Assembly (NCBI GenBank): GCA_016187745.1
Contig: JACPJC010000005.1
Location: 192,308-256,307 of the forward strand
DNA: 64,000 nucleotides
Direction: 5' to 3'
Source of the DNA: Candidatus Iainarchaeum sp.
GTDB taxonomy: Archaea > Iainarchaeota > Iainarchaeia > Iainarchaeales > JAXPJC01
The stretch's first letter is position 1; each line of letters opens with the position of its first letter. A program made the translations under genes and the position numbers. Below the pieces are notes generated by a model. The model saw only the letters and a list, made by a program, of their open reading frames with translations, ran no database searches and had not been told where the DNA came from. Below, one piece after another: positions 40,533 through 61,088 of the stretch.

Positions 40533-40575
40533 TAAACCAAATGGTTGATTTTTGTTCAACCGCAGGTATATTAAT
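40533..40575 (+). promoter_or_regulatory. Palindromic operator-like site plus TATA-like box, copy A
   Basis: TAAACC-AAAT-GGTTGA-N7-TCAACC-GCAGG-TATATTAAT, 23 bp before ATG 40599. Confidence 0.8.
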
Positions 40576-40894
40576 CCTCAGAGCAGGGATTCTGAAAGAT
40601 GAGTGCAATGTATGAAATGACAAGAGTTCTTTCAGCAAAAACTGCAAAGCGCAGGACCCTTGCAGACCTTGCAGTTGCCATCCTGGGAAAGGAATGGCCT
40701 CTTTCCTTAAATGCCATACATCAAAGAATAACCAAAGGGCATGGAAAAGCCGCATCAATCCAGGCAACCCATAAGAGCCTTGCAAGGCTTGTAAAGCAGA
40801 ACATTCTTCTGAAGCAGAAAAAACGCTACAGATTGAGCCCGAAATGGCTTGAGCAAGTCAATAATTTCAGCATGCAGACAAAAGAGGCATATGC
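40533..40894 (+). repeat. ~360-bp direct repeat, copy 1 (operator, promoter and short wHTH gene)
   Basis: Matches 57263-57624; the offset is 16,730 bp at both ends. Confidence 0.95.
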
Positions 40895-40916
40895 AACCGG
40901 AGGCATTAAAAAATGA
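40599..40916 (+). CDS. Short 'EWPLS' winged-helix protein (DNA-binding domain only)
   Basis: ILGKEWPLS..SIQATHKSL..L..Y.L...W aligns with the N-termini of the five proteins at 52960-57225. Confidence 0.85.
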   Translation: MSAMYEMTRVLSAKTAKRRTLADLAVAILGKEWPLSLNAIHQRITKGHGKAASIQATHKSLARLVKQNILLKQKKRYRLSPKWLEQVNNFSMQTKEAYATGGIKK

Positions 40917-41093
40917 AGAGAGCCGCCCATTTGTTCTGCAATTCTCCAGCATTTATAATTACTTGCGGCAATAGTATAAATCGGGGTCGTGGGGGTTTGA
41001 GGCAGTTGATAGGGAGAAATGGGATTCTTGCGATATGTAGGTAAATCAATCAACATAATTTTACACTATAATTAATTCAAAAACAGCAAAAGA

Positions 41094-42695
41094 GTGAAAA
41101 AGAACATGCAATTTAATATGTCAAATAGTCAAATTTATGTGGCTGGTTCTCCAGCAGTAGGAAAAAACCTATTTTGCCCATTATTATCAGAAAAGACAAA
41201 CTCAAAATACATAAGATTTAATACCTTAATAAATAATAAGAATAAATTTCGTGTATCGGATTATATTGTTGAATACAAGAAAAATAACGTTTTTGCCTAT
41301 TATAATTATAAAACACTCCAAGTGGTTTACGGAAAAAAGAAGCTTAAACGAATAATGGATGAATATAAAAAACCTAAAAATTTGAAAACCTATCTTGCAA
41401 AGTCCTCAACAAAAAACACTACACTAAAAACAATTCTTAATACACTCATCCGTGAAGAATACTTAGTTAGTGGAACTGAAGGCCCGATTTTAAATAATGC
41501 GAAACTTGAAGAACGCAATCGAATCAACCCAAATTTATTACGAATTTTACTGACGTTTGATTGCAATCTAGAATGCAAATACTGTCAAATCAGAACCAAT
41601 CTTTTTAGTGAGTATAACAAACCAGTTACTAAAGAAGAAATCGACAAAGCCTTTGCATTGTTCAAGAAAAACAATAATGAATACAATATAATTTCTTTGT
41701 CTGGTGGAGAACCAATGCTCACTTTTGATTTAGTAAAGTATGTCGTAGAAAAATCCAAAAAAGAATTCAAACCTGGAAAATACCATATAGTATTGTCCTC
41801 TAATGGAACACTGATTACAGACTGCATCGCAGAGTATGTTGCCAAAAAAAACTTGTTGCCAATTATTTCCCTGGATGGTCAAGAAAAAGACAACAAAATG
41901 CGCATTTACCACAACGGCTTAGAATCCTACAAAAACATTCTTGCCGGAATTGAAACCCTAAAAAGACACAACTGCAAAAACATTGCCATTTCAATGACAA
42001 TCGGAGCTCACAACATAAAAAACATCAAAAAAACAATGCAAAACATTATCAACAAAATCAATCCAGTAAGCGTTGGCTACAATTTCGTTCACTATCCCTA
42101 CTTTAATAATCAACATTACTCTCTTCCTGATATTAATGATTACTCAAAAGCAGTCATTCACATTTTTACCGAACTTCGAAAGCACAAAATTTATGATGAG
42201 CAATTTTTCCGAAGACTCCAACCTTTTGTAGAACGAAAAATCCGAATAAAAGAATGCTCGGCACTCGGCGGCGCACTTAACCTCGTTCCTGGTGGCTTCA
42301 TTGGTCCATGCAAAACACTCTTGGCAAGCAAACACTTCTCCCAACCAATTGATAAAACAGAAAACTTAGGGGGTTCCAAGATTTTTACTGCATTTTCGAA
42401 CCGAAGCACATTAACATTGGATGAGTGTAAGAATTGTGTAGCCAGAACCATTTGTGGTGGAGGATGTACATTTGATTCCTTTGTAACGTATCACGATATT
42501 TTCCATGTAGACAAACGGAACTGCGAATATATCAGAAAAGTATTAGAATTTATGATTTGGGATCTATACAGACTAACTTCAAAGAAAAAAACTGATGTTT
42601 TGATTCCGACCAACAAGGATCGCAAAAAAATGTATGGGGGCATTAAACTTTTGAGTACCACCCTTACAGAATCCGTTGGCCATAAAATATATTGA
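41094..42695 (+). CDS. Radical SAM/SPASM-domain protein
   Basis: CNLECKYC, SGGEPML, SSNG, SLDG; SPASM-type ECSA..PC..CKNC..CGGGC..C. Confidence 0.93.
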   Translation: MKKNMQFNMSNSQIYVAGSPAVGKNLFCPLLSEKTNSKYIRFNTLINNKNKFRVSDYIVEYKKNNVFAYYNYKTLQVVYGKKKLKRIMDEYKKPKNLKTYLAKSSTKNTTLKTILNTLIREEYLVSGTEGPILNNAKLEERNRINPNLLRILLTFDCNLECKYCQIRTNLFSEYNKPVTKEEIDKAFALFKKNNNEYNIISLSGGEPMLTFDLVKYVVEKSKKEFKPGKYHIVLSSNGTLITDCIAEYVAKKNLLPIISLDGQEKDNKMRIYHNGLESYKNILAGIETLKRHNCKNIAISMTIGAHNIKNIKKTMQNIINKINPVSVGYNFVHYPYFNNQHYSLPDINDYSKAVIHIFTELRKHKIYDEQFFRRLQPFVERKIRIKECSALGGALNLVPGGFIGPCKTLLASKHFSQPIDKTENLGGSKIFTAFSNRSTLTLDECKNCVARTICGGGCTFDSFVTYHDIFHVDKRNCEYIRKVLEFMIWDLYRLTSKKKTDVLIPTNKDRKKMYGGIKLLSTTLTESVGHKIY

Positions 42696-42823
42696 AATAT
42701 ACTTCCCACATACCTTCTCCAACATATTGAGCGTCTTTCGTTCATGAATTATGATCTATTCAATAACACAACGAAAAACCTTTGTATTTATATTAATTTT
42801 CAAATAGAATAATATTGATAAAA

Positions 42824-44119
42824 ATGATTAATCCAAAACTTATTCGAAAAGAATTTGAGTTTGTCAAGAAAAACTTGGAAAGACGCAGAGACCAAAAAAC
42901 AATACAAATTCTGACAGACTGGTATGCTCAAGACAAAGAATTACTCCCACTTCAACAAGAAATAGATTTTTTGAGATCAAAAATAAATAAAATCAATCAA
43001 CAAATAATAGTAGAAAAACTAAGCGAAAAAGATATTAAACCACTTGTAGCCGAAGCAAAAATAACAGCCCAGGTTATTAAAGAAAAAGAAGTACGTCTTA
43101 GTGCCTTAAAAATAACTCATCGTGATTTACTGATGCGAATTCCAAACCTACTAGATGAATCGGTTCCAGTGGGAAATGATGGTAGCGAAAATCAAGTCAT
43201 AAAAAGAGTGGGGAGTATAATTGAACCGGATTTTGAACCGAAACATCACGGGCAATTAGCTACAGAACTTGGTGTAACCGATTTTGAAAGGGCCGTTAAC
43301 CTATCGGGTGCAGGTTTTTACATTTTGAAAGGAGACTTAGCACTCTTAAATTTAGCAATAGTAAACTACGCAGTGAACAAATTAGCAAAAAAAGGGTTTA
43401 CCTTTGTCATCACACCAGGCATGATAAAACGAAAACCCTATGAAGGAGTAATTAATCTTGCAGACTTCCAAGATATGTTATATAAGGTAGAGAAAGAAGA
43501 CTATTACCTCATTGCAACTGCCGAACATCCTTTAATCGCAATGCACATAGGCGAAACATTTGACTCTAAAGATTTACCTATAAAATACATGGGATACACA
43601 ACGAACTACAGAAAAGAAATTGGTGCCCACGGATTAGATGAAAGAGGGCTTTTTCGATTACACCAATTTGATAAAGTAGAACAAACAATTATTTGTGAAC
43701 CGGAAGAAAGCAAAAAATGGCATGAAGAATTATTAAAAAACGCTGAAGAAATAGTCAACGATTTTGAAATACCTTACCAGGTCATTTCAATTTGTGATGG
43801 AGACATTGGACTAGTCGCAGCTAAGAAGTATGATATTGAGGCATGGTCACCGCGTGAAAAAAAATACTTTGAAACTCATTCCTTATCAAATTGCACAACT
43901 TATCAATCGTTGCGATTAAATATTAAGTACAAAAACAGCAAAATAAAGGATTATGTTCACACCCTAAATGCAACTGCAGTTGCTGTACCTCGCATGCTAA
44001 GAGCAATCATCGAAAATTATCAAACAAAGGATGGAACAATAAAAATTCCAAAAGTGTTGCAACCAAATATGGGTGGAAAAAAAGAAATAATGAAGAGCCG
44101 TCCAGAAAGAATAAACTAG
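42824..44119 (+). CDS. serS: Seryl-tRNA synthetase
   Basis: IPNL, LIATAEHPL, YRKEIG..RGLFRLHQFDKVE, KKYDIEAW, SNCT.YQ..RL, HTLNATA..R. Confidence 0.96.
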   Translation: MINPKLIRKEFEFVKKNLERRRDQKTIQILTDWYAQDKELLPLQQEIDFLRSKINKINQQIIVEKLSEKDIKPLVAEAKITAQVIKEKEVRLSALKITHRDLLMRIPNLLDESVPVGNDGSENQVIKRVGSIIEPDFEPKHHGQLATELGVTDFERAVNLSGAGFYILKGDLALLNLAIVNYAVNKLAKKGFTFVITPGMIKRKPYEGVINLADFQDMLYKVEKEDYYLIATAEHPLIAMHIGETFDSKDLPIKYMGYTTNYRKEIGAHGLDERGLFRLHQFDKVEQTIICEPEESKKWHEELLKNAEEIVNDFEIPYQVISICDGDIGLVAAKKYDIEAWSPREKKYFETHSLSNCTTYQSLRLNIKYKNSKIKDYVHTLNATAVAVPRMLRAIIENYQTKDGTIKIPKVLQPNMGGKKEIMKSRPERIN

Positions 44120-45285
44120 TCGAACAACTTCTCCAAAAACTCTTCTGTAATTACATTATTTCCCCCGTTTGATTTCTTATACTTTTTAAAAGCTTGGAAA
44201 ATGTCATTGTCAGATTTCTTGATTCCAAATGACTTAAGTGTTTTAATGAAACAGCCTAAACTACTATTAATGGTAAGAGGAAAATCAGTCCGTTTCCCCC
44301 ATTGTTCGAAATTGACTACTTGAAAAGAAAATGGATCTTTTTTCATCCAGTCTTGGTGAATACCTGACGCGTGTTTTGACACCCACTCCCCAACAACCGG
44401 TGTGTGCAACGAAAGGGGGTTATATTTAATTATTTTTTTTAAAGCTTCAACAGCCAGCAAGGCATTTTCAGATTGAAAGTTTATTTTTTTATGAAAATAA
44501 TCCCTTCGGCTTAAAAGGCTGGCAATAACTGCTTCTTTTTGCGCGTTTCCCGCCCTCTCACCAATACCCGCAACAGTAACTTCTGCTTGTTTTGCACCAG
44601 CTTGAATTCCTAAAATAGTGTTTGCAACAGCTAATCCTAAATCATTGTGGGTATGAACACTTAATATTGTCCTGTCTCTCACTTTTTCTTTAACTCGTTT
44701 AACTAAAGAATAGTATTCTAACGGTAATGCAAAGCCAGGGCTGTCTGCCAAAGTAATAATTTTAGCCCCTGCTGATTCAGCAGCAAGTACAGTAAGCAAA
44801 AGGTATTTCCAATTTAATCGAACTGCATCAACCGCACAATATTGAATTTGTAAGCCGGGATAAAGTTCTTTAGCATACTTAATACTCTCTACAATTTGCT
44901 TTTTTGCCGACTTTATGTTCAGCCCTAATGTTTTATCTTTTTTTGTCGTGCTCCCTGCAATGAACAGATAAATTCTACCCCTTCCAGAAGAAATTGCCGG
45001 TTCAAGTGCCGCAACTGTTTTTTCAACATCCTCCAATTTACACCTTGAAATAGCAGAAATTACAACAGGCCACTTCTCAAGTGCGCAAGATTCGCTTATT
45101 TTTTTAACTGCTTTAAAATCTTGGCCGTGTGCGGCAGGAAATCCACATTCAATGACGTCCGCTTGTCTGTTCTTTCCAAGAAAACGCGCAAATTTTAGCT
45201 TTTGTTTCCAGTTTAAATTACCCTCTGCTGTTTGAACTCCATCACGCAAAGTTGTATCATACACAAATATCTTGTTCACACGCAT
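44116..45285 (-). CDS. DRE-TIM acyl-CoA condensing enzyme (isopropylmalate/homocitrate/citramalate synthase-like), no regulatory domain
   Basis: DTTLRDGVQ, HTHNDLGLAVAN, GIGERAGN, HASGIHQD; 389 aa. Confidence 0.9.
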   Translation of the reverse strand: MRVNKIFVYDTTLRDGVQTAEGNLNWKQKLKFARFLGKNRQADVIECGFPAAHGQDFKAVKKISESCALEKWPVVISAISRCKLEDVEKTVAALEPAISSGRGRIYLFIAGSTTKKDKTLGLNIKSAKKQIVESIKYAKELYPGLQIQYCAVDAVRLNWKYLLLTVLAAESAGAKIITLADSPGFALPLEYYSLVKRVKEKVRDRTILSVHTHNDLGLAVANTILGIQAGAKQAEVTVAGIGERAGNAQKEAVIASLLSRRDYFHKKINFQSENALLAVEALKKIIKYNPLSLHTPVVGEWVSKHASGIHQDWMKKDPFSFQVVNFEQWGKRTDFPLTINSSLGCFIKTLKSFGIKKSDNDIFQAFKKYKKSNGGNNVITEEFLEKLFD

Positions 45286-45533
45286 TTAGTTACCTTTTTT
45301 ATTCTCTTCTCTAGAAAGTTAATTATATCCCCGACTTTTTCAACTTCAATAATCTGTTTCAATGACATCTTAACTCCAAATTCCTTTTCAATAGCATCAA
45401 TGAGTTTTATGTGATTTAACGAATCCCACGATTGAAAATCATTTGGAGTCATTTTTGGAGAAATATTGATTGTTTTGTCTCCAAAAAAATCCCTAAAAAC
45501 TTTGTTCAATCGTATTGAGATATCACTTTTCAT
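45276..45533 (-). CDS. Acyl carrier protein
   Basis: WDSLNHIKLI..IEKEFGV; start moved to ATG 45533. Confidence 0.92.
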   Translation of the reverse strand: MKSDISIRLNKVFRDFFGDKTINISPKMTPNDFQSWDSLNHIKLIDAIEKEFGVKMSLKQIIEVEKVGDIINFLEKRIKKVTKCV

Positions 45534-47343
45534 TTGACTCACACACATGTACTTTCAACGGTTTAAAGTTTGAAACATTCAGCACCCAAACAGAATTGTT
45601 TTTTGTTGAACTCTTTCTTGAAAAACCTAATTTACCATACAAATCACGAACTATCTCATTTTTTTGAGTCTTGTTATACTTTCCAATAACAAACTTCTTC
45701 TTCAATCTAATGGCCTGTTTAATGACCCAATTAATTACAAACTTTTCGATGTCTCTAGAAAAAACTCTGCAACTCATTACCCAATTGAGAATAACCAATG
45801 CATCATTTTTCTGTTGTAGCACCATTGCGCTAATAGATCCTGAATCTCCAAATTTATCATTTAAATCAAAGACCGTAAACATTTTCAAATTATTGTCTTT
45901 TAATTCTGTTTCTGAAAACCTTTCCCCCGTGAGATTAAATTGATTGCATCGCTGAAACAGTTGTACGGCTCTTGGAGCATAAAAATCTTCATTATAATGA
46001 ATATTACAAACCATGGTAAGGCTATCTAAAAACTCCCCTAAATCTTTAAACTTTGATTTGTGTTCATTTCTCAAAGTATTTACTTTATAATATTCCGTTC
46101 TTCGAACGTCTTCTTCAGTAAACGAAGCCGACTCAAACAGATTTAGCTCTTGTAAAAATGTGATATACTCAACAGGGTCTTCCGGCAAGTCAGGAACACA
46201 GATCCCCCAACAGCAGCTTTCTACCAATTCTCGTTCAACAGGATCATCGTCAAAAAAAACCATTGAATCTATTTCGATGTTCAACTCTTTAGCTATTTTT
46301 TTTATGTTGGTTGCTTTATCTTGCCAATTTATTGCAAAAAATGAAATATCATTTTCTCTCAAAATCATATCTGGGTGTTCTCGGAAAACTTTTATTGCAT
46401 TCTCAAATGAATTCTTGCTACAAACAGCCAGTATTATCCCTCTCTGCTTCAAATTTTTCAAGTATTGTTGAATTCGTGTGAAAGCTTCTCCGAAAGCAGT
46501 TCCCCCTATTGCAATCTTTTCAATACCGTCCTCTGCCACTATACCGCCCCACACAAAATTATCCAAATCAAATACAACACATTTTTTTGTTTTTCCTTTT
46601 ACTGCCAAAATTATATCACAAATGTTTTTGGCAATATGGGCAGTAAAATCCAGGGAAGGATAACTTTTTGAGTAATGCCATATGCGATAGTCCGTCCAAT
46701 TTTTTCTCCCAAAATAAGAGGATAAAAAGTCTACGTCGTTTATGAAAACATTTTTGTAGGTTCTAGCGACGGATGAGATTTCTAAGTTTAATCGGATTAT
46801 TGCTTCTTTAAAGGAAAAAAGTTTGTTTTCGTAATTGCCAAACTCTCTCCAAGTATCTACTTCGAAATTGCTCTGAATAATACTGCATGTAATTCTTTCA
46901 TTAATTGAGTTCCAAAGTGAAATGATTTTTTTAGTTTCTTGTTTTACAAAAGTGTTAAACTCCCTTTTGTTAGCAAAAATAAAATTTTTTCTATTAAGCA
47001 ACAAGAGATTATTGTTAATCACAACTATCTGGGGTTTGAAAGTAATCAGCTTTGAATCACGGTTCAAAAATTCCTGTATCGTTGAGTTAAAATTACCAAA
47101 ATAGAATTTTGGCGAAAAACCATTGATCAATAAGAATGACTTTAGTGCGGGTTCAAATAGTTTAGAAGCACTATTGCCAAAAATAGCAATACGTATTATT
47201 GGCAACCCTTTCGAATCCATTTCTTCTGCAATTTTGCATATTTCATTGTATGACTGCATTCTATCACACGACCGAAAGTACTGCCTTACCACTATGGCTG
47301 GCTGGTGAACGGTTGCTTTTATCTCTTTCTTGAAATATTTCAT
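45523..47343 (-). CDS. FkbH-like HAD-IIIC phosphatase/glyceryl transferase
   Basis: VFDLDN..WGG, CSKN, INWQDK, FFDD.P.ER, LFQRCNQFNLT, DKFGDSG, MSCRV. Confidence 0.93.
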   Translation of the reverse strand: MKYFKKEIKATVHQPAIVVRQYFRSCDRMQSYNEICKIAEEMDSKGLPIIRIAIFGNSASKLFEPALKSFLLINGFSPKFYFGNFNSTIQEFLNRDSKLITFKPQIVVINNNLLLLNRKNFIFANKREFNTFVKQETKKIISLWNSINERITCSIIQSNFEVDTWREFGNYENKLFSFKEAIIRLNLEISSVARTYKNVFINDVDFLSSYFGRKNWTDYRIWHYSKSYPSLDFTAHIAKNICDIILAVKGKTKKCVVFDLDNFVWGGIVAEDGIEKIAIGGTAFGEAFTRIQQYLKNLKQRGIILAVCSKNSFENAIKVFREHPDMILRENDISFFAINWQDKATNIKKIAKELNIEIDSMVFFDDDPVERELVESCCWGICVPDLPEDPVEYITFLQELNLFESASFTEEDVRRTEYYKVNTLRNEHKSKFKDLGEFLDSLTMVCNIHYNEDFYAPRAVQLFQRCNQFNLTGERFSETELKDNNLKMFTVFDLNDKFGDSGSISAMVLQQKNDALVILNWVMSCRVFSRDIEKFVINWVIKQAIRLKKKFVIGKYNKTQKNEIVRDLYGKLGFSRKSSTKNNSVWVLNVSNFKPLKVHVCESNEK

Positions 47344-47540
47344 TGTTGTCGCGCGCAGCCGCCAAAGGTGGCCCTCTAGTGGCGGGATAGGAGACTAAGC
47401 TATGGATAAAATAAATGGCATAAGCTATAAAAAAGGGAATGATACAAGAAGCAACTGGATAATGTTCATTAAAACATTCGTTACTTGTGCCCTTAACGAT
47501 ACGGCCTTCGCTAATTGGCTCCGATTATTCTAAGCTCTTT

Positions 47541-47918
47541 TTAGGTTTCTTTATAATCTCGCTTCTTTGGGAGCATTATTGTCATAGCAATGGCAAAATC
47601 TGCTGAATGGGAAATGCTAGATAAAAAAGAAACACGGGGGAGTTTTTTTACTGAAATTAAAATTGCCCTGTCTTTTTTGGGTTCAATTCGGATGTCTTTT
47701 AATCCTAGTTTTACGGTATTCGCGCAAGCTTTTATTGTAGCTTCTTTGGCACAAAAGATTCCTGCAAAAGAAGCGGCTGTGTTTTTTCTTTTTTTAAGGC
47801 AGTACTTAATTTCATTTTCTAAAAATATTTTTTTAAAGAACATTTTATTTTCTTTGTAACTTTTGTTGAATCGGCTTATCTTTTCAATGTCAATTCCCAC
47901 CCCTTGCATTTTTTTCAC
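47541..47918 (-). CDS. acpS: Holo-ACP synthase (AcpS-type PPTase)
   Basis: GVGIDIE.ISRF, F.AKEA.IK, SISHS. Confidence 0.92.
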   Translation of the reverse strand: MKKMQGVGIDIEKISRFNKSYKENKMFFKKIFLENEIKYCLKKRKNTAASFAGIFCAKEATIKACANTVKLGLKDIRIEPKKDRAILISVKKLPRVSFLSSISHSADFAIAMTIMLPKKRDYKET

Positions 47919-48857
47919 CTAGATTATATCTTCTATCTTCCAATAAGCATATGTGTGCTGGTATTCTCGGGGGAAGTCTGCTTCTATTTCAGACAAAAAT
48001 TCTGTTAATGGAATGTTAGAGTTGACTAGAATATTCTGAGAAAATTGGTCTTTGGTCTCAAAGAGAAGTTTTGTGAAAAGGATTTTACGTTTTTTGTATA
48101 TTTCTACAGCCTTTTTTCTTCTATAATGCAATAGGTAGTGTAGTCGTAACCAGTCTTTTTCATTCTTAACATAATCGTTTAGATAAGTAGTTGCATAGCT
48201 TGGAAGGTCTCCCTTGAGGAGTTCAAAAGGAGTTAAAGGGTTGACACTTTTTTTAGAAAACGAGGGCTGTTTAAGTTTAATCAGTTTTGATATTACAAAG
48301 TGTCTCCATTTGAGGTTTGGGGGGGCACGATTTCGTTCTAGAAACCACACAATTTCCTGGTGATCTGCGCACATCATTCTGGAGAATTTACAATCAAATT
48401 GCGCTATCCATTGCAAAAATTTCTTTTCTTCTTGAATATATTCGTTTTTCAATACCAGAAATTTTTTTGAAGCTGTTTTTTTAATGTTCTTAAATCGCTT
48501 AGAAGGGTCATAAATTGGCGTAAGCTTTTGAATCCACCAAAAAATGTATGGGTTTACTATTGGGGTTTGAATATTTTCCAGAATATCAAAATAAGAGGAT
48601 TTGTCATCTTGGAAATGTAAACGAATTCCCCCTTTAACCAGAACTCTTGGGGAGAGCATCCTTGAAATTCTCTCTGCGTCTTCTGAGACTGCTGTTGTAT
48701 CTGAGCCAGAAATTATCAGGTCCAAATCAGAATATTGGTCAATTTGAATGTTCTTCGTTGAAGCCCCTAACAAAATCATATATTTGCCAGGATAATTTTT
48801 AGTCAATAGTTTGGCAAATTTTTTTGAAATTTTAATGCTATTTTTTGCAAAATCCAA
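47919..48857 (-). CDS. Pol-beta-superfamily nucleotidyltransferase-domain protein
   Basis: LLGAS...YSDLDLII (G[GS]..DxD pattern). Confidence 0.6.
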   Translation of the reverse strand: MDFAKNSIKISKKFAKLLTKNYPGKYMILLGASTKNIQIDQYSDLDLIISGSDTTAVSEDAERISRMLSPRVLVKGGIRLHFQDDKSSYFDILENIQTPIVNPYIFWWIQKLTPIYDPSKRFKNIKKTASKKFLVLKNEYIQEEKKFLQWIAQFDCKFSRMMCADHQEIVWFLERNRAPPNLKWRHFVISKLIKLKQPSFSKKSVNPLTPFELLKGDLPSYATTYLNDYVKNEKDWLRLHYLLHYRRKKAVEIYKKRKILFTKLLFETKDQFSQNILVNSNIPLTEFLSEIEADFPREYQHTYAYWKIEDII

Positions 48858-49461
48858 AAAGCAACACCACCTTTCTTAAGAACATTTGTTCATTTTTGGG
48901 GATAAGATTAATTAGAAAAACGTTCTGTTGTTTCAAAAGCTGCTTTTCAAATTTAAGGTAGTTTTTGATTCTTTTTCTAAGGATTTGCTTGTCATCATCG
49001 GCGCGTATGCCTAATTTCCCATGGCAACGGGGGCATTTCTTGTGAATCCTTTTATTATATGTTTCGAGACATCTTGGGCAAAACCTACGATTTAAGGCAT
49101 TCTTAAAAATTGTTTCTTTATCGTAGTACGTAATTACAAATATGATTCCGTCGCTGCAAAGCTTGGCTTGACTTGCGGTGCGAGGAAATCCATCTACAAT
49201 ACAAAATGCCGGGAGTTGTGAAAAGGCTTTTTTTACTTCATAGTTTGATGCTAAAGCCGCTCTTTCTTTTTTCTTCAATTGCAAGCTAAAGTTAATTAAT
49301 GGCAGTCCGGTTATTTTAGATAACAAAAAGGAGAAAAATGTTTTACCGATTGCTGGAGGTCCAGTGATATATATTCTCATAATTTTTACTCTTTTTGTAT
49401 AAAATAAATCAACATAACTTCTTTTAAAATACTGTTTTTTGGGTAATAATTTTTTGAACAT
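48838..49461 (-). CDS. Adenylate kinase-like P-loop nucleotide kinase
   Basis: GPPAIGKT, DGFPRT, Zn-lid CPRC..CPRC, RADD. Confidence 0.88.
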   Translation of the reverse strand: MFKKLLPKKQYFKRSYVDLFYTKRVKIMRIYITGPPAIGKTFFSFLLSKITGLPLINFSLQLKKKERAALASNYEVKKAFSQLPAFCIVDGFPRTASQAKLCSDGIIFVITYYDKETIFKNALNRRFCPRCLETYNKRIHKKCPRCHGKLGIRADDDKQILRKRIKNYLKFEKQLLKQQNVFLINLIPKNEQMFLRKVVLLFGFCKK

Positions 49462-49546
49462 GTTGCAATCTTGCAGTTCTCAAAGAAACTCAAATTAACC
49501 GGGATAATGCCCTGCTGCATTGGGCTTCATTGAAGTCTCTTTTTTC

Positions 49547-49678: not shown

Positions 49679-49831
49679 CCTTAGGCTTTTCGTTATGCAT
49701 ATTGCTAAGTTTTTTGCCTGACATATTTATCCTCTAATTTTATGAGCATACTCATATGCAACATTCTCTTTCCCTGTCATCCCCCCAGCTAATTTCTATC
49801 TGAATTTATCCCTTCTTGGTAAATCTTTTAC

Positions 49832-49932
49832 TAAAGAACCTTGGCGCTGAACGCTCCGCTTTTCAAAGCGGAGATGAAAGCTATTGTACTTATCATAATT
49901 AAACGCCTTGGCATTTATGCCAAGGTTCTTTA
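49832..49932 (-). repeat. ~100-nt structured element with 14-bp terminal inverted repeats, copy 1
   Basis: TAAAGAACCTTGGC...GCCAAGGTTCTTTA with two internal hairpins; homologous to 62625-62728. Confidence 0.85.
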
Positions 49933-50000
49933 CATTCCTGCAATTCATCGCAGAACTTGCAGTTGAACTGGTAGCTTGCATACTGCCCAAAACAGGCCAT
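49899..50000 (-). CDS. Cys-rich mini-protein, copy 1 (33 aa; C-terminus supplied by the structured element)
   Basis: MACFGQYASYQFNCKFCDELQEC..., paralogous to 63163-63312. Confidence 0.5.
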   Translation of the reverse strand: MACFGQYASYQFNCKFCDELQECKEPWHKCQGV

Positions 50001-50261
50001 TCCCTGCTTTTCCTTATGCGTGCCATGCCAAATTCATATTTGTGCCTCCTGCAGGCAAGGCGGTTAAGGCACATAATCTATCAGAACTTGCAAAATTTTT
50101 TGTAAATAAATTCGGGAAATCCTGACTTAGGCAATAAATGGCATCAGCCAGAGCCATGTTATGTATAATCATTTGCTTCCCGCCCCATCAAAAGGTTTTT
50201 ATATAATGGAATTATTATTAATTAAGCGGAATCTGGAATGATTTTCGGAAAGTGAAAAGCA

Positions 50262-52959: not shown

Positions 52960-53823
52960 TTACCTGAAATATTTCATCAACTGTTTCTTCAAAAACTTTG
53001 CCATATCAGGATTTCTTGTTATTGTGAGGTCAAAATGCATCGGAGTTTTTAGTGTATTTCTGAAATATACCTCCCTGAAAAGGTCTGTAAGATTTTTGTT
53101 TCTGTTATACACTTCATCCAATATTTGTTTAGTTTCTGCAGAAGATACAACTTCAATTATACAATCTCCTTGAACATACAGCGAGTCATCGAATAGTTGT
53201 TCCTTTGTGCCTATTTTTACATTGCTTACACCTGCTCTTAGAAATTGTTTTTGAAGCCATTTATCAAATGGGCTGGCCAATGAAACAATAGCGTAAGTCT
53301 TCTTACAGTTTCTGGCAACGCCTTGCAAAATCGCAAAATCTTTGAAATTGAATCTTAATGGCCAATACATGTGCCTGAACCAAGCAATTGCTGTTGGGTC
53401 ACTATCTCCTGCTAAGATTCTATTTGCAAGCAACTCTGCTATAAAAACGGATAAAACGCTAAAGTCATTAAACTCCAATTTAATAGTCCCCTTGAAATTC
53501 GGATCAATGTCATAAATCATCCCTTCTTTGTTGTATAGTTTTTCCAAATTTGTAGAGAATTTCTTTATATTTGAAATCCAATCCTTGTTCAACTCATATT
53601 TTGCTCCCGCCCTGTAAATAATTCTGTTTTCTTCAAGCTGTTTTAAACTTTTATGGATAGCCTGGTAAGAAACATTTAACGAGAGCTGCCTCTTGGTTCT
53701 GCCATAAATTTCCTTAGCGCTCAATGGCCACTCCTGGCTTAGTATGGAGATGATGGCGTCTTTGGTGGTATTTTGTTTGGTGTTCAATTGCGGAATTATG
53801 GGATTAACCGGCATCTTATTCAC
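52960..53823 (-). CDS. 'EWPLS' winged-helix regulator, paralog 5
   Basis: IPQL..TKDAIISILSQEWPLSAKEIY..VSYQAIHK plus ~190-aa C-terminal domain. Confidence 0.85.
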   Translation of the reverse strand: MNKMPVNPIIPQLNTKQNTTKDAIISILSQEWPLSAKEIYGRTKRQLSLNVSYQAIHKSLKQLEENRIIYRAGAKYELNKDWISNIKKFSTNLEKLYNKEGMIYDIDPNFKGTIKLEFNDFSVLSVFIAELLANRILAGDSDPTAIAWFRHMYWPLRFNFKDFAILQGVARNCKKTYAIVSLASPFDKWLQKQFLRAGVSNVKIGTKEQLFDDSLYVQGDCIIEVVSSAETKQILDEVYNRNKNLTDLFREVYFRNTLKTPMHFDLTITRNPDMAKFLKKQLMKYFR

Positions 53824-54676
53824 TCCTGAAATATTTCATCAATTGCCTTTTCAAAAATTTTGCCATTGAAGGGTCCCGTGTTATTGTAACCTCAAAATGC
53901 ATTGGAGCCTTTAACGCGTCCCTGAAATACACTTCCCTGAAAAGATCTGTAATATTCTTGTTTCTGTTGTATATCTCATCCAATATCTGTTTAGTTCTTT
54001 GGGAGGCATTGAATTTTATCACGCTATCCCCGTGAACTATTAAATCATAATCAAATAGCTCTTCCCCAATCCCTATTTTTACACCTTTGAAACCGGCTTT
54101 CAAATACTGCTTCTGGACCCATTTATCAAACAAGCTGGCTGAAGAGGCAATAACATAGGCATTTTTGCAGTTTTTGCCTATGCGTTGAAGAAGCTCGAAA
54201 TCCTTAAAGTTAAATCTTAGCGGCCAATAGAGGTGCCTAAGCCAGCCAATTGCCATGGGGGCGCTATCTCCCACCAACGTATTGCTTGAGAGTATTTCCG
54301 CAAAAGTAACAATCATAACTGCATAATCATTAAACTGCCACTTAATTGTCCCCCTAAAGTTCCGGTCAATTTCATAAACCATCTCGTCTTTATTGTATAA
54401 TTTCTCCAGGTTTGTAAAAGATTTCTTTGTGTTTGAGATCCAGCTTCTGTTCAGCTCATATTCCCGCCCGACCTTGGAAATAATTCCCTCTTTTTCAAAT
54501 TGCTTTATTGTTTTGTGGACGGCCTGATAGGAAACATTCAAGGAAAGCTGCCTTCGGGCCCTGTTGTGGATTTCTTTTGCGGATAGGGGCCATTCTTGGC
54601 TAAGAATTGAGACAATTGCATCTTTGGCAGTTTTTTGCTTGGGATTTAATTGCGGAATTACAATATTGGTTGTCAT
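53816..54676 (-). CDS. 'EWPLS' winged-helix regulator, paralog 4
   Basis: Same architecture; closest to paralog 5 (RHLYWPLRFNFKDF). Confidence 0.85.
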   Translation of the reverse strand: MTTNIVIPQLNPKQKTAKDAIVSILSQEWPLSAKEIHNRARRQLSLNVSYQAVHKTIKQFEKEGIISKVGREYELNRSWISNTKKSFTNLEKLYNKDEMVYEIDRNFRGTIKWQFNDYAVMIVTFAEILSSNTLVGDSAPMAIGWLRHLYWPLRFNFKDFELLQRIGKNCKNAYVIASSASLFDKWVQKQYLKAGFKGVKIGIGEELFDYDLIVHGDSVIKFNASQRTKQILDEIYNRNKNITDLFREVYFRDALKAPMHFEVTITRDPSMAKFLKRQLMKYFRSE

Positions 54677-55533
54677 TTTTTATCGCCTTCAAAATACTTC
54701 AAATATTCCTCTCTTATCTGGTCAGCAAGAACCTGGTTCCTTGTTATGACCATGTTGATTATCGGCTTTGCATCCCTCATTCTGTCCAGATGGGATGCCA
54801 GATTGAATTCAGTAATGGTTTTCGGCGATTTGTTCTGCAAATACCATGCGTGCCTGAAATCAGGCGAATACCATATCTGCCCTACATAATCCCCTATAAC
54901 TATCGTATCGCACAAGGGAGTAGCGCACTCAACCCCAAACATGATGTGCTTTGCCCCGAAACCTTTCAAGCCATCTGCAAACATCCTGTCCAATAAATTA
55001 TCTTCCTGCGAGAAGATATAGTATGGAGTTTTTGCAAAAACCTCTTTTAATTCCGCATAATCCTCGTCTTTCAGGCCGACTATTGAGTAAATATTCCTCC
55101 ATAAGCAGATATTCGGCTTGTTTTTTGGGTTTGGATACTGCATATATATTCCAATCAGGAATCTTGCAAGCTCCAGAATTCCGATGAATGTGAGATTGGC
55201 AACATCCTTTTTGTGCAGGTCTTTAAGCTCATTAATCCCGATCTTGCCGGAATAATGCAGGTCCAGCGTGGCTGCGGAATGTTTGACTCTTTTGATCCAG
55301 TCCTTGTTCAGGGAATATTCATTCTCTTGCTTTTCCAATACTTTGTCATCCAGCAGCTGCAGAAGCAATTTGTGCACCGCCTGATAGCTGACATTCAGGC
55401 CATGCTCCCTAATAACTTTATTGTAAATCTTCTTTGCACTAAGCGGCCATTCCTGGCTTAAAATTGAGATAATTACGTCCTTGGTAGATTTATTCTTAGA
55501 AGCCAGCTGCGGAATTTGAATATCATCAATCAT
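54673..55533 (-). CDS. 'EWPLS' winged-helix regulator, paralog 3
   Basis: TKDVIISILSQEWPLSAKKIY..VSYQAVHK. Confidence 0.85.
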   Translation of the reverse strand: MIDDIQIPQLASKNKSTKDVIISILSQEWPLSAKKIYNKVIREHGLNVSYQAVHKLLLQLLDDKVLEKQENEYSLNKDWIKRVKHSAATLDLHYSGKIGINELKDLHKKDVANLTFIGILELARFLIGIYMQYPNPKNKPNICLWRNIYSIVGLKDEDYAELKEVFAKTPYYIFSQEDNLLDRMFADGLKGFGAKHIMFGVECATPLCDTIVIGDYVGQIWYSPDFRHAWYLQNKSPKTITEFNLASHLDRMRDAKPIINMVITRNQVLADQIREEYLKYFEGDKK

Positions 55534-56381
55534 TTTCTCTCTCCCTTGAAATATTCCATTGTCTGTTCCCTGATTCTGTCTGCAACTTCCCGATTCTTTG
55601 AAACTATAACATTGAACTTATCACTATGCTCATATATGAGCATCAGCAGTTTGCTAAGTCTCAGTTTGTCTAAAATTCTAGCAATTTTGCAGTATCTAAG
55701 CCAGTCCTTTCTGAATTTTGGTGAGAAATAAATTAGCCCAACGTAATCTCCCTGGACCATCGTGTCAGGATTAAAGGGAATATCAGCCCCCAATAGAACT
55801 TTTGCCCCAAGACCTGTGAAGTTTTCAGCAAATATCTTGTCCATTGTTGTCTGGTTGTGCCCCAACATATAGTATTGTGTTTGTGAAAGCCTTTGCCTTA
55901 ATCTCCGGTATTCCGAATCGGAAAGGCTGATTGGGGGGTAGATGCTCCACCAATGACAAATTCCTGGCTTCTTGTCAGGATTTGGATATGCAAAAAATAC
56001 ATCCAAGATGAATCTCGCCAGATCCATAGGGTCATTAAATGTGAAATTGAATACTTCCTGATTTTCAGAATGTTTCATTGATGCAGGAATTTTAGTTATG
56101 TATGCCCTTTCTATGAATTCCCCGAAATTCTTAATGCTTCTAATCCAATCCAGGTTTAACATAAATCCTTTTTCAATCTTCTTTATTTGCCCTGCACTTT
56201 CCATCTCATTCAAAGTTTTATGAACTGCCTGATATGAAATCGCAATCGTACGCTTTCTAAGCAAGCGATTGCAAATCTCTTTGGCACTCAAAGGCCACTC
56301 TTCAGCCAAGATTGCAATAATTTGGTCTTTCGTTGATTTTGATTTAGAATTCAGCTGTGGGATTGAAATGTCCATAGCCAT
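55530..56381 (-). CDS. 'EWPLS' winged-helix regulator, paralog 2
   Basis: TKDQIIAILAEEWPLSAKEI..ISYQAVHK. Confidence 0.85.
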   Translation of the reverse strand: MAMDISIPQLNSKSKSTKDQIIAILAEEWPLSAKEICNRLLRKRTIAISYQAVHKTLNEMESAGQIKKIEKGFMLNLDWIRSIKNFGEFIERAYITKIPASMKHSENQEVFNFTFNDPMDLARFILDVFFAYPNPDKKPGICHWWSIYPPISLSDSEYRRLRQRLSQTQYYMLGHNQTTMDKIFAENFTGLGAKVLLGADIPFNPDTMVQGDYVGLIYFSPKFRKDWLRYCKIARILDKLRLSKLLMLIYEHSDKFNVIVSKNREVADRIREQTMEYFKGERK

Positions 56382-56382
56382 T

Positions 56383-57225
56383 TTACTCCCCCTTCCTGAA
56401 ATATGACAAGGTCTGCTTTTTCAGGAATTGCGCAAGCCCTTTGTTGCGGTTGATTACCACAGGGATCCTGACCTTTTTCTCAAACACGTTCCTGAAAAAC
56501 CCGTCAGCATCAATGTCATTTGCGCCTGATGCGCGCTCATAAACCTTGTCAATTTCGTATTTTATTGCCTGGGGGTAAAAGACCTCTGCTACAATGTCCT
56601 TGTATATTACCATGTCAATAGTGGATGCTGAGTCAACACCGCACTTTGCATGAATTCCTTTCTTACGCCAAAAATTGCAGAACTGCCTGTCAATTGCGGT
56701 ATTGCCCCTTGTTATGGAATATGTATTGCATGCAGCCAGGATTTCATTCATCTGCCTGTATTCCTCCATAAACATAAAAAGCGGTATCCAGAAATGGGTC
56801 CAGTGCAGGCAAAGAACCTCTTTTTTGCCTGAGATTTCCTTCTTCCCAAATCCTATAAGGAATTTGTCCACATCATAAACCGAATTAAACATGAGATTCA
56901 ATGGATTGGCGTTTGGATTCTGCGGCTCATTTAACGCATATGCTGTTTCCAGATGCTCGCTGAATTCCTTAATATTCTTTATCCATTCGTTGTCCAGCAG
57001 ATATGCCATGCCCTGGCTTGCTATTATCCTGTGCGATTGAAGCGTATTGAGCGTCTTATGAACCGCCTGATAGGAAATGCCGATTGCCTGCTGCCTGCGG
57101 AGCTTGTTGTAAATCTGCTTGGCTGTAAGGGGCCACTCTTCGCTGAGTATTGAAATAATCGCGTCCTTCGTGGAGCCTGCTTTTGAACCGAATTGCGGCA
57201 GGATTGGGCTTGAGCCTGTAGGCAT
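56383..57225 (-). CDS. 'EWPLS/T' winged-helix regulator, paralog 1 (first gene of the array)
   Basis: TKDAIISILSEEWPLTAKQIY..ISYQAVHK; start moved to ATG 57225. Confidence 0.85.
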   Translation of the reverse strand: MPTGSSPILPQFGSKAGSTKDAIISILSEEWPLTAKQIYNKLRRQQAIGISYQAVHKTLNTLQSHRIIASQGMAYLLDNEWIKNIKEFSEHLETAYALNEPQNPNANPLNLMFNSVYDVDKFLIGFGKKEISGKKEVLCLHWTHFWIPLFMFMEEYRQMNEILAACNTYSITRGNTAIDRQFCNFWRKKGIHAKCGVDSASTIDMVIYKDIVAEVFYPQAIKYEIDKVYERASGANDIDADGFFRNVFEKKVRIPVVINRNKGLAQFLKKQTLSYFRKGE

Positions 57226-57262
57226 AATAAGTAAATATAGTGGAGGGGAAGCTTTTTTAAAT

Positions 57263-57305
57263 TCAACCATTTAGTTGATTTCTGTTCAACCGCAGGTATA
57301 TTAAT
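57263..57305 (+). promoter_or_regulatory. Palindromic operator-like site plus TATA-like box, copy B (divergent promoter region)
   Basis: TCAACC-ATTT-AGTTGA-N7-TCAACC-GCAGG-TATATTAAT, 23 bp before ATG 57329. Confidence 0.8.
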
Positions 57306-57624
57306 CCTCAGAGCGGGAATTCTGAAAGATGAGTGCAATGTACGAAATGACAAGGCTTCTTTCAGCAAAAACTGCAAAGCGCAAAACTCTTGCAGACCTT
57401 GCAGTTGCTATCCTGGGCAGGGAATGGCCCCTTTCCTTAAATGCCATACACCAGAAAATAACCAAAGGACATGGAAAAGCCGCATCAATCCAGGCAACCC
57501 ATAAAAGCCTTGCAAGGCTTGTAAGGCAAAATGTTCTTCTGAAAAGTAAAAAACGCTACAGACTGAGCCCGAAATGGCTTGAGCAGGTAAATAATTTCAG
57601 CATGCAGACGAAAGAGGCTTATGC
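57263..57624 (+). repeat. ~360-bp direct repeat, copy 2
   Basis: Matches 40533-40894. Confidence 0.95.
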
Positions 57625-61079: not shown

Positions 61080-61088
61080 AGGGATTAA

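What the first reader, a model, noticed from the sequence alone, without database searches (positions are those of the whole stretch)
40533..57624. ~360-bp direct repeats 16,730 bp apart, each followed by a different AT-rich radical-SAM cassette
Seen: the operator, promoter and short wHTH gene are duplicated. Similarity stops at the codons for EAYA, and unrelated AT-rich sequence follows (rSAM/SPASM after copy 1, B12-rSAM after copy 2). Six of the 7 amino-acid differences are conservative. Inference: a portable expression header that captures or swaps biosynthetic cassettes. The repeats could also excise or amplify the 16.7-kb segment by homologous recombination.
Basis: partly seen in the sequence, partly recalled or inferred. 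Interest (0 to 1): 0.75.

Follow-up and report, generated by a model that had tools for sequence, protein, structure and literature searches.

The report
Duplicated regulator gene heading variable operons
An uncultured groundwater archaeon carries two near-identical copies of a small DNA-binding regulator gene with its own promoter and binding site; the copies are kept alike by recombination, and the genes behind them differ between close relatives, so this is a gene-swapping hot spot rather than a proven mobile element.

Summary
Positions 40533-40894 and 57263-57624 are a 362-bp direct repeat, 90.3% identical and 16,730 bp apart. Each copy has a palindromic operator, a TATA-like box and a 104/105-aa gene of an unannotated winged-helix-like family. 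Both copies are real: copy-specific contigs occur at single-copy depth in four metagenome runs.

New findings:
- The 43-nt operator/promoter occurs four times in the window, and about eight times per genome by k-mer depth.
- Header copies group by lineage, while their tails and downstream genes group by locus. This is concerted evolution by gene conversion, and it ends at the EAYA codons because homology ends there.
- Behind copy 1, 144 bp of native DNA continues to 41038 (tail, a conserved small ORF, the first codons of a giant S8 protease gene). Only then does the AT-rich island start, so the island replaced the protease gene.
- In close relatives the same upstream flank and header precede four different genes: B12-rSAM, small ORF plus S8, another rSAM, and a phosphoribosyltransferase. 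The junction positions differ.

"Swappable cassettes behind a constant header" is therefore supported as a pattern. A dedicated portable element is not: no recombinase, fixed junction, circle or deletion joint was found. DNA binding and co-transcription are inferred.

The parts
40533..40894 (+). Direct repeat copy 1: operator/promoter plus the conserved core of header gene 1
   Evidence: 362 bp, 90.3% identical to copy 2, with sharp boundaries.
57263..57624 (+). Direct repeat copy 2: operator/promoter plus the conserved core of header gene 2
   Evidence: Its upstream flank is orthologous to those of L012 and L019.
40533..40575 (+). Operator/promoter element, copy at header 1. It has three half-sites (TTAAACC / GGTTGA / TTCAACC) abutting the TATA-like GTATATTAAT.
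   Evidence: family D3. The exact GTTGAN6TTCAACC match is at 40544.
57263..57305 (+). Operator/promoter element, copy at header 2. It lies in the divergent intergenic region shared with long paralogue 5.
   Evidence: It is identical to the op3 copy over 41 consecutive nt.
61421..61463 (+). Operator/promoter element, third copy (op3). No header gene follows. The ATG of ORF 61496-62236 is at the same distance (+75) as in the other copies.
62742..62784 (+). Operator/promoter element, fourth copy (op4), before ORF 62817-63170 (117 aa). The ATG is again at +75.
40599..40916 (+). Header gene 1: 105-aa small winged-helix-like protein with tail TGGIKK
   Evidence: No Pfam family. Homologous to the N-terminal 95 aa of the long paralogues (BLASTP E=1e-13).
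57329..57643 (+). Header gene 2: 104-aa paralogue with tail LSCNS
   Evidence: The tail and downstream DNA are orthologous to L010.
40913..41044 (+). Small ORF overlapping the header stop (ATGA). It is 31-32 aa in relatives (MK..AHL.CNS.AFIITC.NSIN). Here a 1-nt difference fuses it to the first ~10 codons (LIGRNGILAIC) of a lost giant S8 protease gene.
   Evidence: This is the best-conserved stretch between L001 and L008 (89-91%).
41039..49460 (.). AT-rich island (34% GC) that replaced the S8 protease gene. It holds an rSAM/SPASM peptide-maturase-like gene (41094-42695), SerRS, a LeuA-like synthase, FkbH, AcpS, an unknown gene and an adenylate-kinase-like gene.
   Evidence: The left breakpoint at 41038/41039 comes from alignment to L001, L008 and L012. 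There is no S8 remnant in the window. The right limit is approximate.
57659..61385 (+). Operon behind header 2: B12-binding/rSAM/methyltransferase fusion (57659-60280), B3/4-domain protein (60225-61079) and a MazG-like 98-aa ORF (61089-61385). It ends 36 nt before op3.
   Evidence: It is orthologous in L010 (89.8% aa, dS 0.23).
52960..57225 (-). Five tandem 283-295-aa paralogues. Their N-terminal domain is homologous to the header and has a similar recognition-helix motif (S.QA.HK.L).
   Evidence: (family D2).

Best explanation
The repeat is two paralogous copies of one regulatory module in an archaeon. Earlier scan notes call the genome DPANN; I did not verify that. The module has three parts:
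- a 43-nt operator/promoter with three TTCAACC-type half-sites that run into the BRE/TATA position
- a short or absent 5' leader
- a ~105-aa winged-helix-like protein with a C-terminal helix

Inferred mechanism: the protein binds the operator as a dimer and blocks TBP/TFB access. It would thereby repress its own transcription and that of the genes co-transcribed behind it. It would also act on the other promoters that carry the same operator (four in this window, about eight per genome). The logic resembles ArsR/SmtB-type operons that begin with the repressor gene.

Both copies have the same predicted recognition helix, so they should serve the same operators. The five neighbouring long paralogues probably do so too; these add a ~190-aa C-terminal domain.

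Shown by comparison:
- The two header loci are old. The header-to-B12-rSAM and header-to-small-ORF-to-S8 arrangements exist in other lineages.
- The header cores are homogenised within each lineage by gene conversion. Conversion tracts stop where homology stops, at the operator on the 5' side and at the EAYA codons on the 3' side. That explains the sharp repeat borders.
- The DNA behind the header has been replaced repeatedly in close relatives, at differing junctions. In the window an AT-rich island displaced the S8 gene 144 bp beyond the repeat.

The header is thus the conserved edge of a gene-replacement hot spot and a substrate for homologous recombination. It is not a demonstrated self-mobile cassette platform.
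For: Repeat and selection:
- The repeat is confirmed.
- dN/dS is 0.10, so both copies are under purifying selection.

Operator:
- Exact GTTGAN6TTCAACC matches occur four times in the window. None of 100 shuffles reached the observed total of 14 matches at up to 2 mismatches.
- All four sites share a 43-nt block, with the ATG at the same +75 distance.
- The same block lies downstream of the most distant close homologue, in L013.
- k-mer depth is about 8 times single-copy over the operator core, against 2 times over the header CDS, in four runs.

Protein:
- It is homologous to the N-terminal domain of the five long paralogues (E=1e-13).
- In a profile search, the significant hits are 96 short proteins. 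Where they are named at all, they are called predicted transcriptional regulators, some from Micrarchaeota.
- Weak hits go to Sso10a (E=0.06), Fur and ZitR.
- The AF2 model shows a three-helix core plus a long C-terminal helix.
- The best Foldseek hits, though weak, are mostly winged-helix domains.

Concerted evolution:
- Quartet site counts in the core favour within-lineage grouping: 23:5:4 (c1,c2|L008,L010), 14:0:5 (c1,c2|L001,L019) and 23:4:4 (L001,L019|L008,L010). L008 and L010 also share a 9-nt insertion.
- Downstream of EAYA, 72:0:0 sites group by locus.
- The maximum-likelihood tree joins L008 and L010 with 97/97 support.

Variable downstream genes behind an orthologous flank.

Breakpoint of the island at 41038, and no S8 remnant in the window.
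Against: - No experiment or transcript data exist. No RNA run holds the locus. Binding, repression and co-transcription are therefore inferred.
- The winged-helix assignment rests on non-significant structural and sequence matches and a low-confidence model (pLDDT 64).
- The concerted-evolution argument assumes that two contigs from one sample (L008/L010, and L006/L019) come from one genome.
- Within the window the 35 mismatches are evenly spread. The longest identical run is 35 nt, about what chance predicts. The last conversion here is therefore not recent (dS 0.39).
- Between the window and L010, the header core is more diverged (dS 0.79) than the adjacent rSAM gene (dS 0.23). Simple vertical descent plus conversion does not predict this.
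- Contexts of the relatives are short contigs (0.9-6.8 kb).
Confidence: 0.62

Rival explanations
1. Anchor-mediated cassette exchange. The conserved header, possibly together with the other operator copies, serves as the homologous anchor through which foreign or sister-lineage DNA is integrated (homology-facilitated illegitimate recombination). Whole operons would then be swapped between lineages behind a ready-made, regulated promoter. This is the mechanistic form of the first reader's idea.
For: - The same upstream flank and header are followed by four unrelated genes in relatives whose upstream flank is about 8-19% diverged in nucleotide sequence from the window's.
- The left junctions cluster within about 30 nt of the end of the header homology but are not identical. 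That is the pattern expected for one-sided anchoring.
- The downstream DNA is AT-rich (34-37% GC, against 45% for the rest of the window).
- Divergence between the window and L010 steps from about 80% identity in the header to about 93% in the B12-rSAM operon, exactly at the gene boundary (dS 0.79 against 0.23). The cassette therefore seems to have a younger shared history than the header.
- The operon behind header 2 ends 36 nt before the next operator copy.
- Fragments of the island occur at 96-99% identity in a run from another study.
Against: - No donor, transfer intermediate or recombinant joint was seen.
- In copy 1 the island joins 144 bp beyond the header, inside another gene. The header end was not the junction there.
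- There is no genome-wide divergence baseline between lineages, so the step could instead reflect fast header evolution.
- Only about six independent contexts are known.
Confidence: 0.2
2. Plain paralogy without recombination. One duplication in the window's lineage copied the regulator in front of a second operon. The copies then diverged on their own, and the differences in relatives reflect ordinary gene-order decay.
For: - Mismatches between the copies are evenly spread, with no long identical tract.
- Both copies are under purifying selection (dN/dS 0.10).
- Cluster-situated regulator paralogues are common.
Against: - Both locus types, with their distinct tails (GGIKK against LS[CR]N[ST]) and downstream genes, already exist in other lineages. 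The duplication therefore predates the lineage splits.
- Yet the cores group by lineage (23:5:4, 14:0:5, 23:4:4; tree 97/97; shared 9-nt insertion), while the flanks group by locus (72:0:0).
- Independent, identical duplications into the same two sites in three lineages is far less parsimonious than conversion.
Confidence: 0.08
3. Integron-like site-specific cassette platform. The header would play the role of the platform, with a promoter and an attachment site at its 3' end, and a recombinase would insert the cassettes.
For: A constant promoter-bearing module is followed by variable, co-oriented genes. A repeated element stands at the start of successive gene groups.
Against: - No tyrosine or serine recombinase domain appeared in any ORF scanned between 38 and 64 kb.
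- No attC-like repeat lies at cassette ends.
- Junctions lie at three different positions relative to the header end.
- The repeated element is at a fixed distance from the start codons and contains a TATA-like box, so it is a promoter/operator.
- Neither the element nor the protein family was found in 2.9 million viral contigs.
Confidence: 0.05
4. Assembly artefact. One header would have been placed twice, or the flanks mis-joined across a repeat.
For: - Logan contigs break at the 32-nt and 35-nt identical stretches, so short-read graphs cannot phase flank, middle and flank.
- One public contig (L011) joins the 5' half of copy 1 to the 3' half of copy 2, exactly across the 35-nt identical stretch.
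Against: - Two different 215-nt middle unitigs (16 differences) each have single-copy depth in four runs. The shared 35-mer has about double depth.
- Each copy's 3' junction is reproduced in independent metagenomes (L010; L001, L008, L012). Copy 2's 5' junction is reproduced in L012 and L019.
Confidence: 0.03

Closest known systems
Operons that begin with a small autoregulatory winged-helix repressor (ArsR/SmtB type), and archaeal repressors that bind over the BRE/TATA region (MDR1, LrpA, Phr, TrmB; from general knowledge)
   Same: - The first gene encodes a ~100-aa HTH-type protein.
- A palindromic site abuts or overlaps the core promoter.
- The downstream genes are close or overlapping and co-oriented.
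   Different: - No sequence membership in ArsR, MarR, PadR, Fur or TrmB families (no Pfam hit).
- No metal- or ligand-binding motif is evident.
- The operator has three half-sites.
- Binding is untested.
Sso10a (Sulfolobus solfataricus; PDB 1r7j/1xsx; described in PMC4941522)
   Same: It is a ~95-aa archaeal protein with a winged HTH followed by a C-terminal helix that forms a dimerising coiled coil. It is the best PDB sequence match, and the match covers the recognition helix, the wing and the C-terminal helix.
   Different: - The match is not significant (E=0.06).
- The abstract of PMC4941522 reports architectural, chromatin-type DNA binding for Sso10a proteins, not operator-specific binding.
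- No structural confirmation: pLDDT 64, and Foldseek found nothing significant.
Concerted evolution of dispersed paralogues by gene conversion (for example duplicated tuf genes and rRNA operons in bacteria; from general knowledge)
   Same: Paralogues within a genome are more alike than positional orthologues between genomes. The boundaries are sharp where homology ends, and the flanks keep the orthologous signal.
   Different: - The converted unit here is a regulator gene together with its own promoter and operator.
- The copies head different operons.
- The current copies are already 10% diverged, so conversion is infrequent.
Integrons, and replacement hot spots filled by homology-facilitated illegitimate recombination (from general knowledge)
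   Same: A constant promoter-bearing edge is followed by variable, co-oriented, compositionally foreign genes.
   Different: - No integrase and no attI/attC.
- Junction positions are variable.
- One island joins 144 bp past the header.
- The mechanism has not been observed.

Membership tests
Winged helix-turn-helix DNA-binding proteins (general fold class) | Three-helix bundle with a recognition helix, followed by a beta-hairpin wing, recognisable by profile or by structure | tested here: inconclusive
   No Pfam family at E<0.01. The PDB profile search gave only weak hits: Sso10a 0.06, Fur 0.3, ZitR 1.2. AF2 gave helices at 21-31, 37-47 and 54-66, a long helix at 81-101, no confident wing, and pLDDT 64. 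Foldseek found nothing with E<2, but the top hits are mostly winged-helix domains. Long paralogue 5 has a sub-threshold FUR hit (E=0.0018).
Sso10a family | Winged HTH plus a C-terminal antiparallel coiled-coil dimerisation helix, with significant sequence similarity | tested here: inconclusive
   E=0.06 over profile positions 42-97. The architecture is compatible. The match is not significant.
Autoregulated repressor-first operon | Palindromic operator overlapping the core promoter of the regulator's own gene | tested here: met
   Half-sites TTCAACC / GGTTGA / TTCAACC end 6 nt before the TATA-like GTATATTAAT. The block is conserved in all close homologues and occurs four times in the window. 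This is sequence evidence only.
Autoregulated repressor-first operon | The protein binds the operator and represses transcription, and the downstream genes are co-transcribed | not testable with these tools
   No RNA run holds the locus. The gaps are short or overlapping: 15 nt between header 2 and the rSAM, and an ATGA overlap between the header and the small ORF.
Paralogues under concerted evolution (gene conversion) | Within-genome copies group together against positional orthologues, while the flanking DNA groups by locus | tested here: met
   Core quartets are 23:5:4, 14:0:5 and 23:4:4. Flank quartets are 72:0:0. L008 and L010 share a 9-nt insertion and join with 97/97 support in the ML tree. 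Caveat: same sample is taken to mean same genome.
Paralogues under concerted evolution (gene conversion) | Recent conversion tracts, seen as long identical runs between the copies | tested here: not met
   The longest identical run is 35 nt, about what chance predicts for 35 mismatches in 362 nt. The last homogenisation in this genome is old (dS 0.39).
Integron-like cassette platform | An adjacent site-specific recombinase | tested here: not met
   Pfam and NCBIfam scans of the ORFs between 38 and 64 kb found no integrase or recombinase.
Integron-like cassette platform | A fixed attachment-site junction and attC-like repeats bounding the cassettes | tested here: not met
   Junctions lie directly after EAY-A (B12 type), about 21 nt later (L019), at the next gene's ATGAAGA (L020), and 144 bp later (the window's island). 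The only recurring element is the promoter/operator.
Excising or amplifying segment bounded by direct repeats | Deletion or circle/duplication joints in sequence data | tested here: inconclusive
   No such joint was found in the contigs of four runs, and depth is even across the 16.7 kb. However, contigs break inside the repeat. L011 has the structure expected for a deletion joint, and L012 that expected for a duplication or circle joint, but neither can be verified.
RiPP cluster (precursor peptide plus rSAM/SPASM maturase) behind header 1 | The maturase reaches a curated family cut-off, and a cognate precursor lies adjacent | tested here: inconclusive
   The best NCBIfam hits are peptide maturases (FibroRumin 141 bits against a cut-off of 400; PapB 118 against 340), all below cut-off. 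The adjacent Cys-containing small ORF is conserved in relatives that have S8 instead of the rSAM, so the pairing is secondary.

The most novel reading that the evidence does not exclude
The header and its dispersed operator copies act as a lineage-specific 'landing pad' system. A conserved regulator-promoter module of about 360 bp serves as the homologous anchor through which whole operons are exchanged between related archaeal lineages and put at once under an existing regulatory circuit. The exchanged operons include rSAM enzymes, proteases and nucleotide-metabolism genes. Gene conversion keeps the pads alike, so that any pad can accept any cassette. This would be a recombinase-free functional analogue of an integron in small-genome archaea.
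Probability: 0.2. Interest if true: 0.75.

Novelty: new member of a known kind. Interest (0 to 1): 0.45.

Why it matters
Gene regulation and genome plasticity in uncultured DPANN-type archaea are almost unstudied. This locus gives a concrete, testable regulon: an unannotated small DNA-binding protein family (no Pfam model), a precisely defined 43-bp operator/promoter present about eight times per genome, and seven related proteins encoded within 17 kb. It is also a clear natural case of a regulator gene and its promoter evolving in concert at two loci while the genes behind them are replaced between close relatives. If the anchor-exchange reading holds, it would explain how such small genomes try out accessory enzymes (radical SAM enzymes, a giant surface protease) under ready-made control without dedicated mobile-element machinery.

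Tried and rejected
I could not count header or operator copies outside the window except by k-mer depth.
- The scan of GTDB species genomes gave only two spurious bacterial hits.
- The JGI metagenome scan added nothing beyond L003 and two distant 34-35% relatives.
- Viral contigs gave no match for the operator pattern or the protein family.
- Rfam found no family in the window.
- Pfam at E<=5 gave nothing meaningful for the header, the op3/op4 genes or the long paralogues. A suspected transposase C-terminal remnant at about 49.53-49.70 kb was not confirmed there.
- Two AF2 runs gave low confidence (pLDDT 60 and 64), and Foldseek against the PDB was not significant.
Its rSAM part is identical to the window over 359 codons. 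It switches copies exactly in the 35-nt identical stretch, so I treat it as a probable k=31 assembly chimera and not as evidence.
- The depth ratios of the two 215-nt middle unitigs vary between runs, but within noise.
- No RNA-seq run holds the locus.
- The rSAM/SPASM has one other homologue (77% identity), with no contig on record.
- A more distant subfamily (P0037, 43% identity) has the same downstream genes in 8 of 9 contigs (Cas6-like, Bro-N). These contigs are near-identical, from two related groundwater projects, and so are uninformative.

Full report
**1. Observation**

The repeat finder reports a two-copy direct repeat with a start-to-start spacing of 16,730. An alignment and a base-by-base comparison set the limits at 40533-40894 and 57263-57624. 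This is 362 bp without gaps, with 35 mismatches (90.3% identity). Outside these limits, identity is at chance level.

Each copy contains three features:
- a palindromic site (GGTTGAttttTgTTCAACC in copy 1)
- a TATA-like GTATATTAAT 6 nt further on
- an ORF of 105 aa (40599-40916) or 104 aa (57329-57643)

The proteins differ at 7 of 98 shared residues, and 6 of the changes are conservative. The predicted recognition helix (residues 53-65) is identical. dS is 0.39, dN is 0.039 and dN/dS is 0.10, so both genes are under purifying selection.

The window comes from an archaeon, shown by the exosome subunits Rrp4/41/42 and SBDS. It is present in groundwater metagenomes. Earlier scan notes call the genome DPANN; I did not verify this.

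**2. Not an assembly artefact**

In four runs of the source study, the Logan contigs break at the 32-nt and 35-nt identical stretches inside the repeat. Two different 215-nt middle unitigs (16 differences) are each present at single-copy depth, and the shared 35-mer has about the summed depth.

Each copy's 3' junction is reproduced in independent metagenomes. Copy 2's 5' junction is reproduced too. No contig shows a deletion or circle joint, and depth is even across the 16.7 kb. Contigs cannot phase across the identical stretches, however.

**3. The operator/promoter belongs to a regulon**

The pattern GTTGAN6TTCAACC has four exact matches in the window, at 40544, 57274, 61432 and 62753. All four sit in a shared 43-nt block, TAAACCATTTAGTTGATTTCTGTTCAACCGCAGGTATATTAAT. 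In each case an ATG follows at exactly +75 from the block start.

The third copy precedes a 246-aa Cys-rich ORF with a hydrophobic, signal-peptide-like N-terminus (judged by eye) (61496-62236). The fourth precedes a 117-aa ORF (62817-63170). Copy 2 and the third copy are identical over 41 nt.

k-mer depth over the operator core is about 8 times single-copy in all four runs. Depth over the header CDS is 2 times. The genome therefore probably holds about eight such promoters but only two header genes. In the most distant close homologue (L013), the same block lies downstream of the regulator gene.

**4. The protein**

No Pfam family matches. The protein is homologous to the N-terminal ~95 residues of the five tandem 283-295-aa paralogues at 52960-57225 (BLASTP E=1e-13; alignment). 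These share the motif EWPL...S.QA.HK.L.

A profile search finds 96 significant short relatives. Where they are named at all, they are called 'predicted transcriptional regulator', and some come from Micrarchaeota. Close relatives (at least 60% identity) number only eight in 5.8 billion proteins.

Structural support for a winged helix is weak:
- The best PDB sequence hit is Sso10a at E=0.06.
- The AF2 model has pLDDT 64, with a three-helix core and a long C-terminal helix.
- Foldseek finds nothing significant, though its top hits are mostly winged-helix domains.

**5. Comparison with relatives**

I fetched contigs for all eight close homologues and aligned them. This gave three results.

*(a) Copy 1's native locus extends beyond the repeat.* Positions 40895-41038 (44% GC) are orthologous to L001-L007, L008 and L012. 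They contain the tail GGIKK and a small ORF that overlaps the header stop (ATGA). In relatives this small ORF also overlaps the start of the next gene (TTGA). The stretch ends with the first ~10 codons (LIGRNGILAIC) of a giant S8 protease (1,933 aa in L008).

At 41039 the window switches to 34%-GC DNA that begins with the rSAM/SPASM gene. No S8 remnant exists anywhere in the window. The island therefore replaced the protease gene, and it did not join at the end of the header.

*(b) Copy 2's tail and operon are orthologous to L010.* The tail is LS[CR]N[ST]. The B12-rSAM is 89.8% identical in amino acids, and the B3/4 gene follows it.

*(c) The same upstream flank and header precede four different genes.* This flank is the orthologue of long paralogue 5, read divergently. 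It is 91.6% identical between the window and L019. Behind it and the header lie:
- the B12-rSAM fusion (window)
- the small ORF plus S8 (L012)
- a different rSAM with CSYSCKHC (L019)
- a phosphoribosyltransferase-like gene (L020)

The junctions differ:
- directly after EAY-A for the B12 type
- about 21 nt later in L019
- at the ATGAAGA start of the next gene in L020

The tails of L019 and L020 are recognisably derived from GGIKK.

**6. Concerted evolution**

Parsimony-informative sites in the header core support grouping by lineage:

| Quartet | Sites for lineage grouping : alternative 1 : alternative 2 |
|---|---|
| c1,c2 vs L008,L010 | 23 : 5 : 4 |
| c1,c2 vs L001,L019 | 14 : 0 : 5 |
| L001,L019 vs L008,L010 | 23 : 4 : 4 |

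L008 and L010 also share a 9-nt insertion. The 250 columns after EAYA support grouping by locus at 72:0:0. A maximum-likelihood tree joins L008 and L010 with 97/97 support.

Both locus types therefore predate the lineage splits, yet the cores have been homogenised within each lineage. Gene conversion limited by the extent of homology explains both sharp borders of the repeat.

Two caveats apply. Contigs from the same sample are assumed to come from the same genome. Within the window, no recent conversion tract is visible.

**7. An unexplained point**

Between the window and L010, the header core is 80-82% identical (dS 0.79). The adjacent rSAM gene is 93% identical (dS 0.23), and the step lies at the gene boundary. 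Either the header evolves unusually fast, or the operon has a younger shared history through transfer between lineages. I could not obtain a genome-wide baseline.

**8. Recombinant-looking contigs**

L011 (P0001) combines the 5' half of copy 1 with the 3' half of copy 2 and the B12-rSAM. This is the structure of a deletion or conversion product. However, it is the same strain as the window (0 differences in 359 codons), and it switches exactly in the 35-nt identical stretch. I therefore regard it as a probable k=31 chimera.

L012 combines copy 2's upstream flank with copy 1's downstream type. This is the structure expected for a duplication or circle junction. It could equally be an older arrangement.

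**9. Mechanism**

*Shown:*
- the duplicated module and purifying selection on both copies
- multiple operator copies at a fixed distance from start codons
- homology to the long paralogues
- concerted evolution of the header cores
- variable downstream genes with differing junctions

*Inferred:*
- The protein binds the three-half-site operator as a dimer or as a higher oligomer.
- Because the operator abuts the BRE/TATA position, binding blocks TBP/TFB. This is the usual mode of archaeal repressors (general knowledge).
- The header is co-transcribed with the genes behind it. The gaps are 15 nt or overlapping, and no T-rich stretch was seen by eye.
- The two short forms and the five long forms compete for, or cooperate at, the same sites.

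**10. Comparison with known systems**

In logic this is a repressor-first, autoregulated operon of the ArsR/SmtB type. In evolution it is a case of paralogues under gene conversion, sitting at a replacement hot spot.

It is not an integron. There is no recombinase, no att-type repeats and no fixed junction.

The protein family itself is unannotated.

**11. Verdict**

The best-supported reading is a new member of known kinds. The anchor-exchange reading (probability about 0.2) would be more novel.

Noticed in passing
window 58588: Contigs of all four source-study runs carry an 18-nt insertion (ACACTTCCACTGCCGTAT) after 58588 relative to the window. This is a 6-codon indel inside the B12-rSAM fusion gene. 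Either the window assembly dropped it or it is a population variant.
   Followed up: no
window 49827-49933 and 62620-62729; also 49926-50007 vs 63186-63267: A ~107-nt element occurs as a direct repeat (80-89% identity). It has about double k-mer depth and several different flanks in the runs, so more copies exist. The second copy lies immediately 5' of the fourth operator. The first copy is joined to an 82-nt segment that is the reverse complement of DNA just after the 117-aa gene. This suggests an inversion or deletion at an operator site.
   Followed up: partly
window 40913-41044; L001 2173-2268; L008 387-485: A conserved 31-32-aa ORF (MK..AHL.CNS.AFIITC.NSIN...) is translationally coupled between the header and the S8 gene (ATGA and TTGA overlaps). 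It is the most conserved stretch between the L001 and L008 lineages (89-91% nt). It also contains two TATA-like motifs, so it could instead be an internal promoter.
   Followed up: partly
window 57329-57623 vs 57668-60280, compared with L010: Between the same two lineages, the header core has dS 0.79 and the adjacent B12-rSAM gene has dS 0.23. The identity step lies at the gene boundary. This is unexplained.
   Followed up: partly
window 42815-44119: A full-length seryl-tRNA synthetase (TIGR00414, 446 bits against a cut-off of 302) sits inside the AT-rich island, next to FkbH, AcpS and a LeuA-like synthase. I could not tell whether it is the genome's only SerRS or an extra copy, for example one conferring self-resistance.
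   Followed up: no
window ~49530-49700 (minus strand): A frame-broken stretch reads ...SESAIGRLKRRYGGFLYLHKATQQRKEILLCMIADNLRIG. From memory it resembles the C-terminus of IS4/IS5-type transposases. It lies at the right edge of the AT-rich island. Pfam did not confirm it.
   Followed up: partly
window 41159-41471 and 46547-46944: A groundwater run from a different study (X5) holds low-depth fragments 96-99% identical to the island's rSAM/SPASM and FkbH genes. Nothing from that run lay over the header. Depth is only about 2, so the absence means little.
   Followed up: no
L021-L029: A more distant short-form subfamily (P0037, 43% identity) lies divergent from an AsnC/Lrp-type regulator and upstream of a Cas6-like gene and a Bro-N gene. 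One contig (L021) has a 141-aa gene in place of the Cas6-like gene and carries a Y1 transposase nearby.
   Followed up: no
window 56383-57270 (minus strand): The longest ORF of long paralogue 5 starts at 57270, inside the operator of copy 2. Alignment with the other four paralogues and with L019 and L020 suggests the true start is Met16 (57225).
   Followed up: partly
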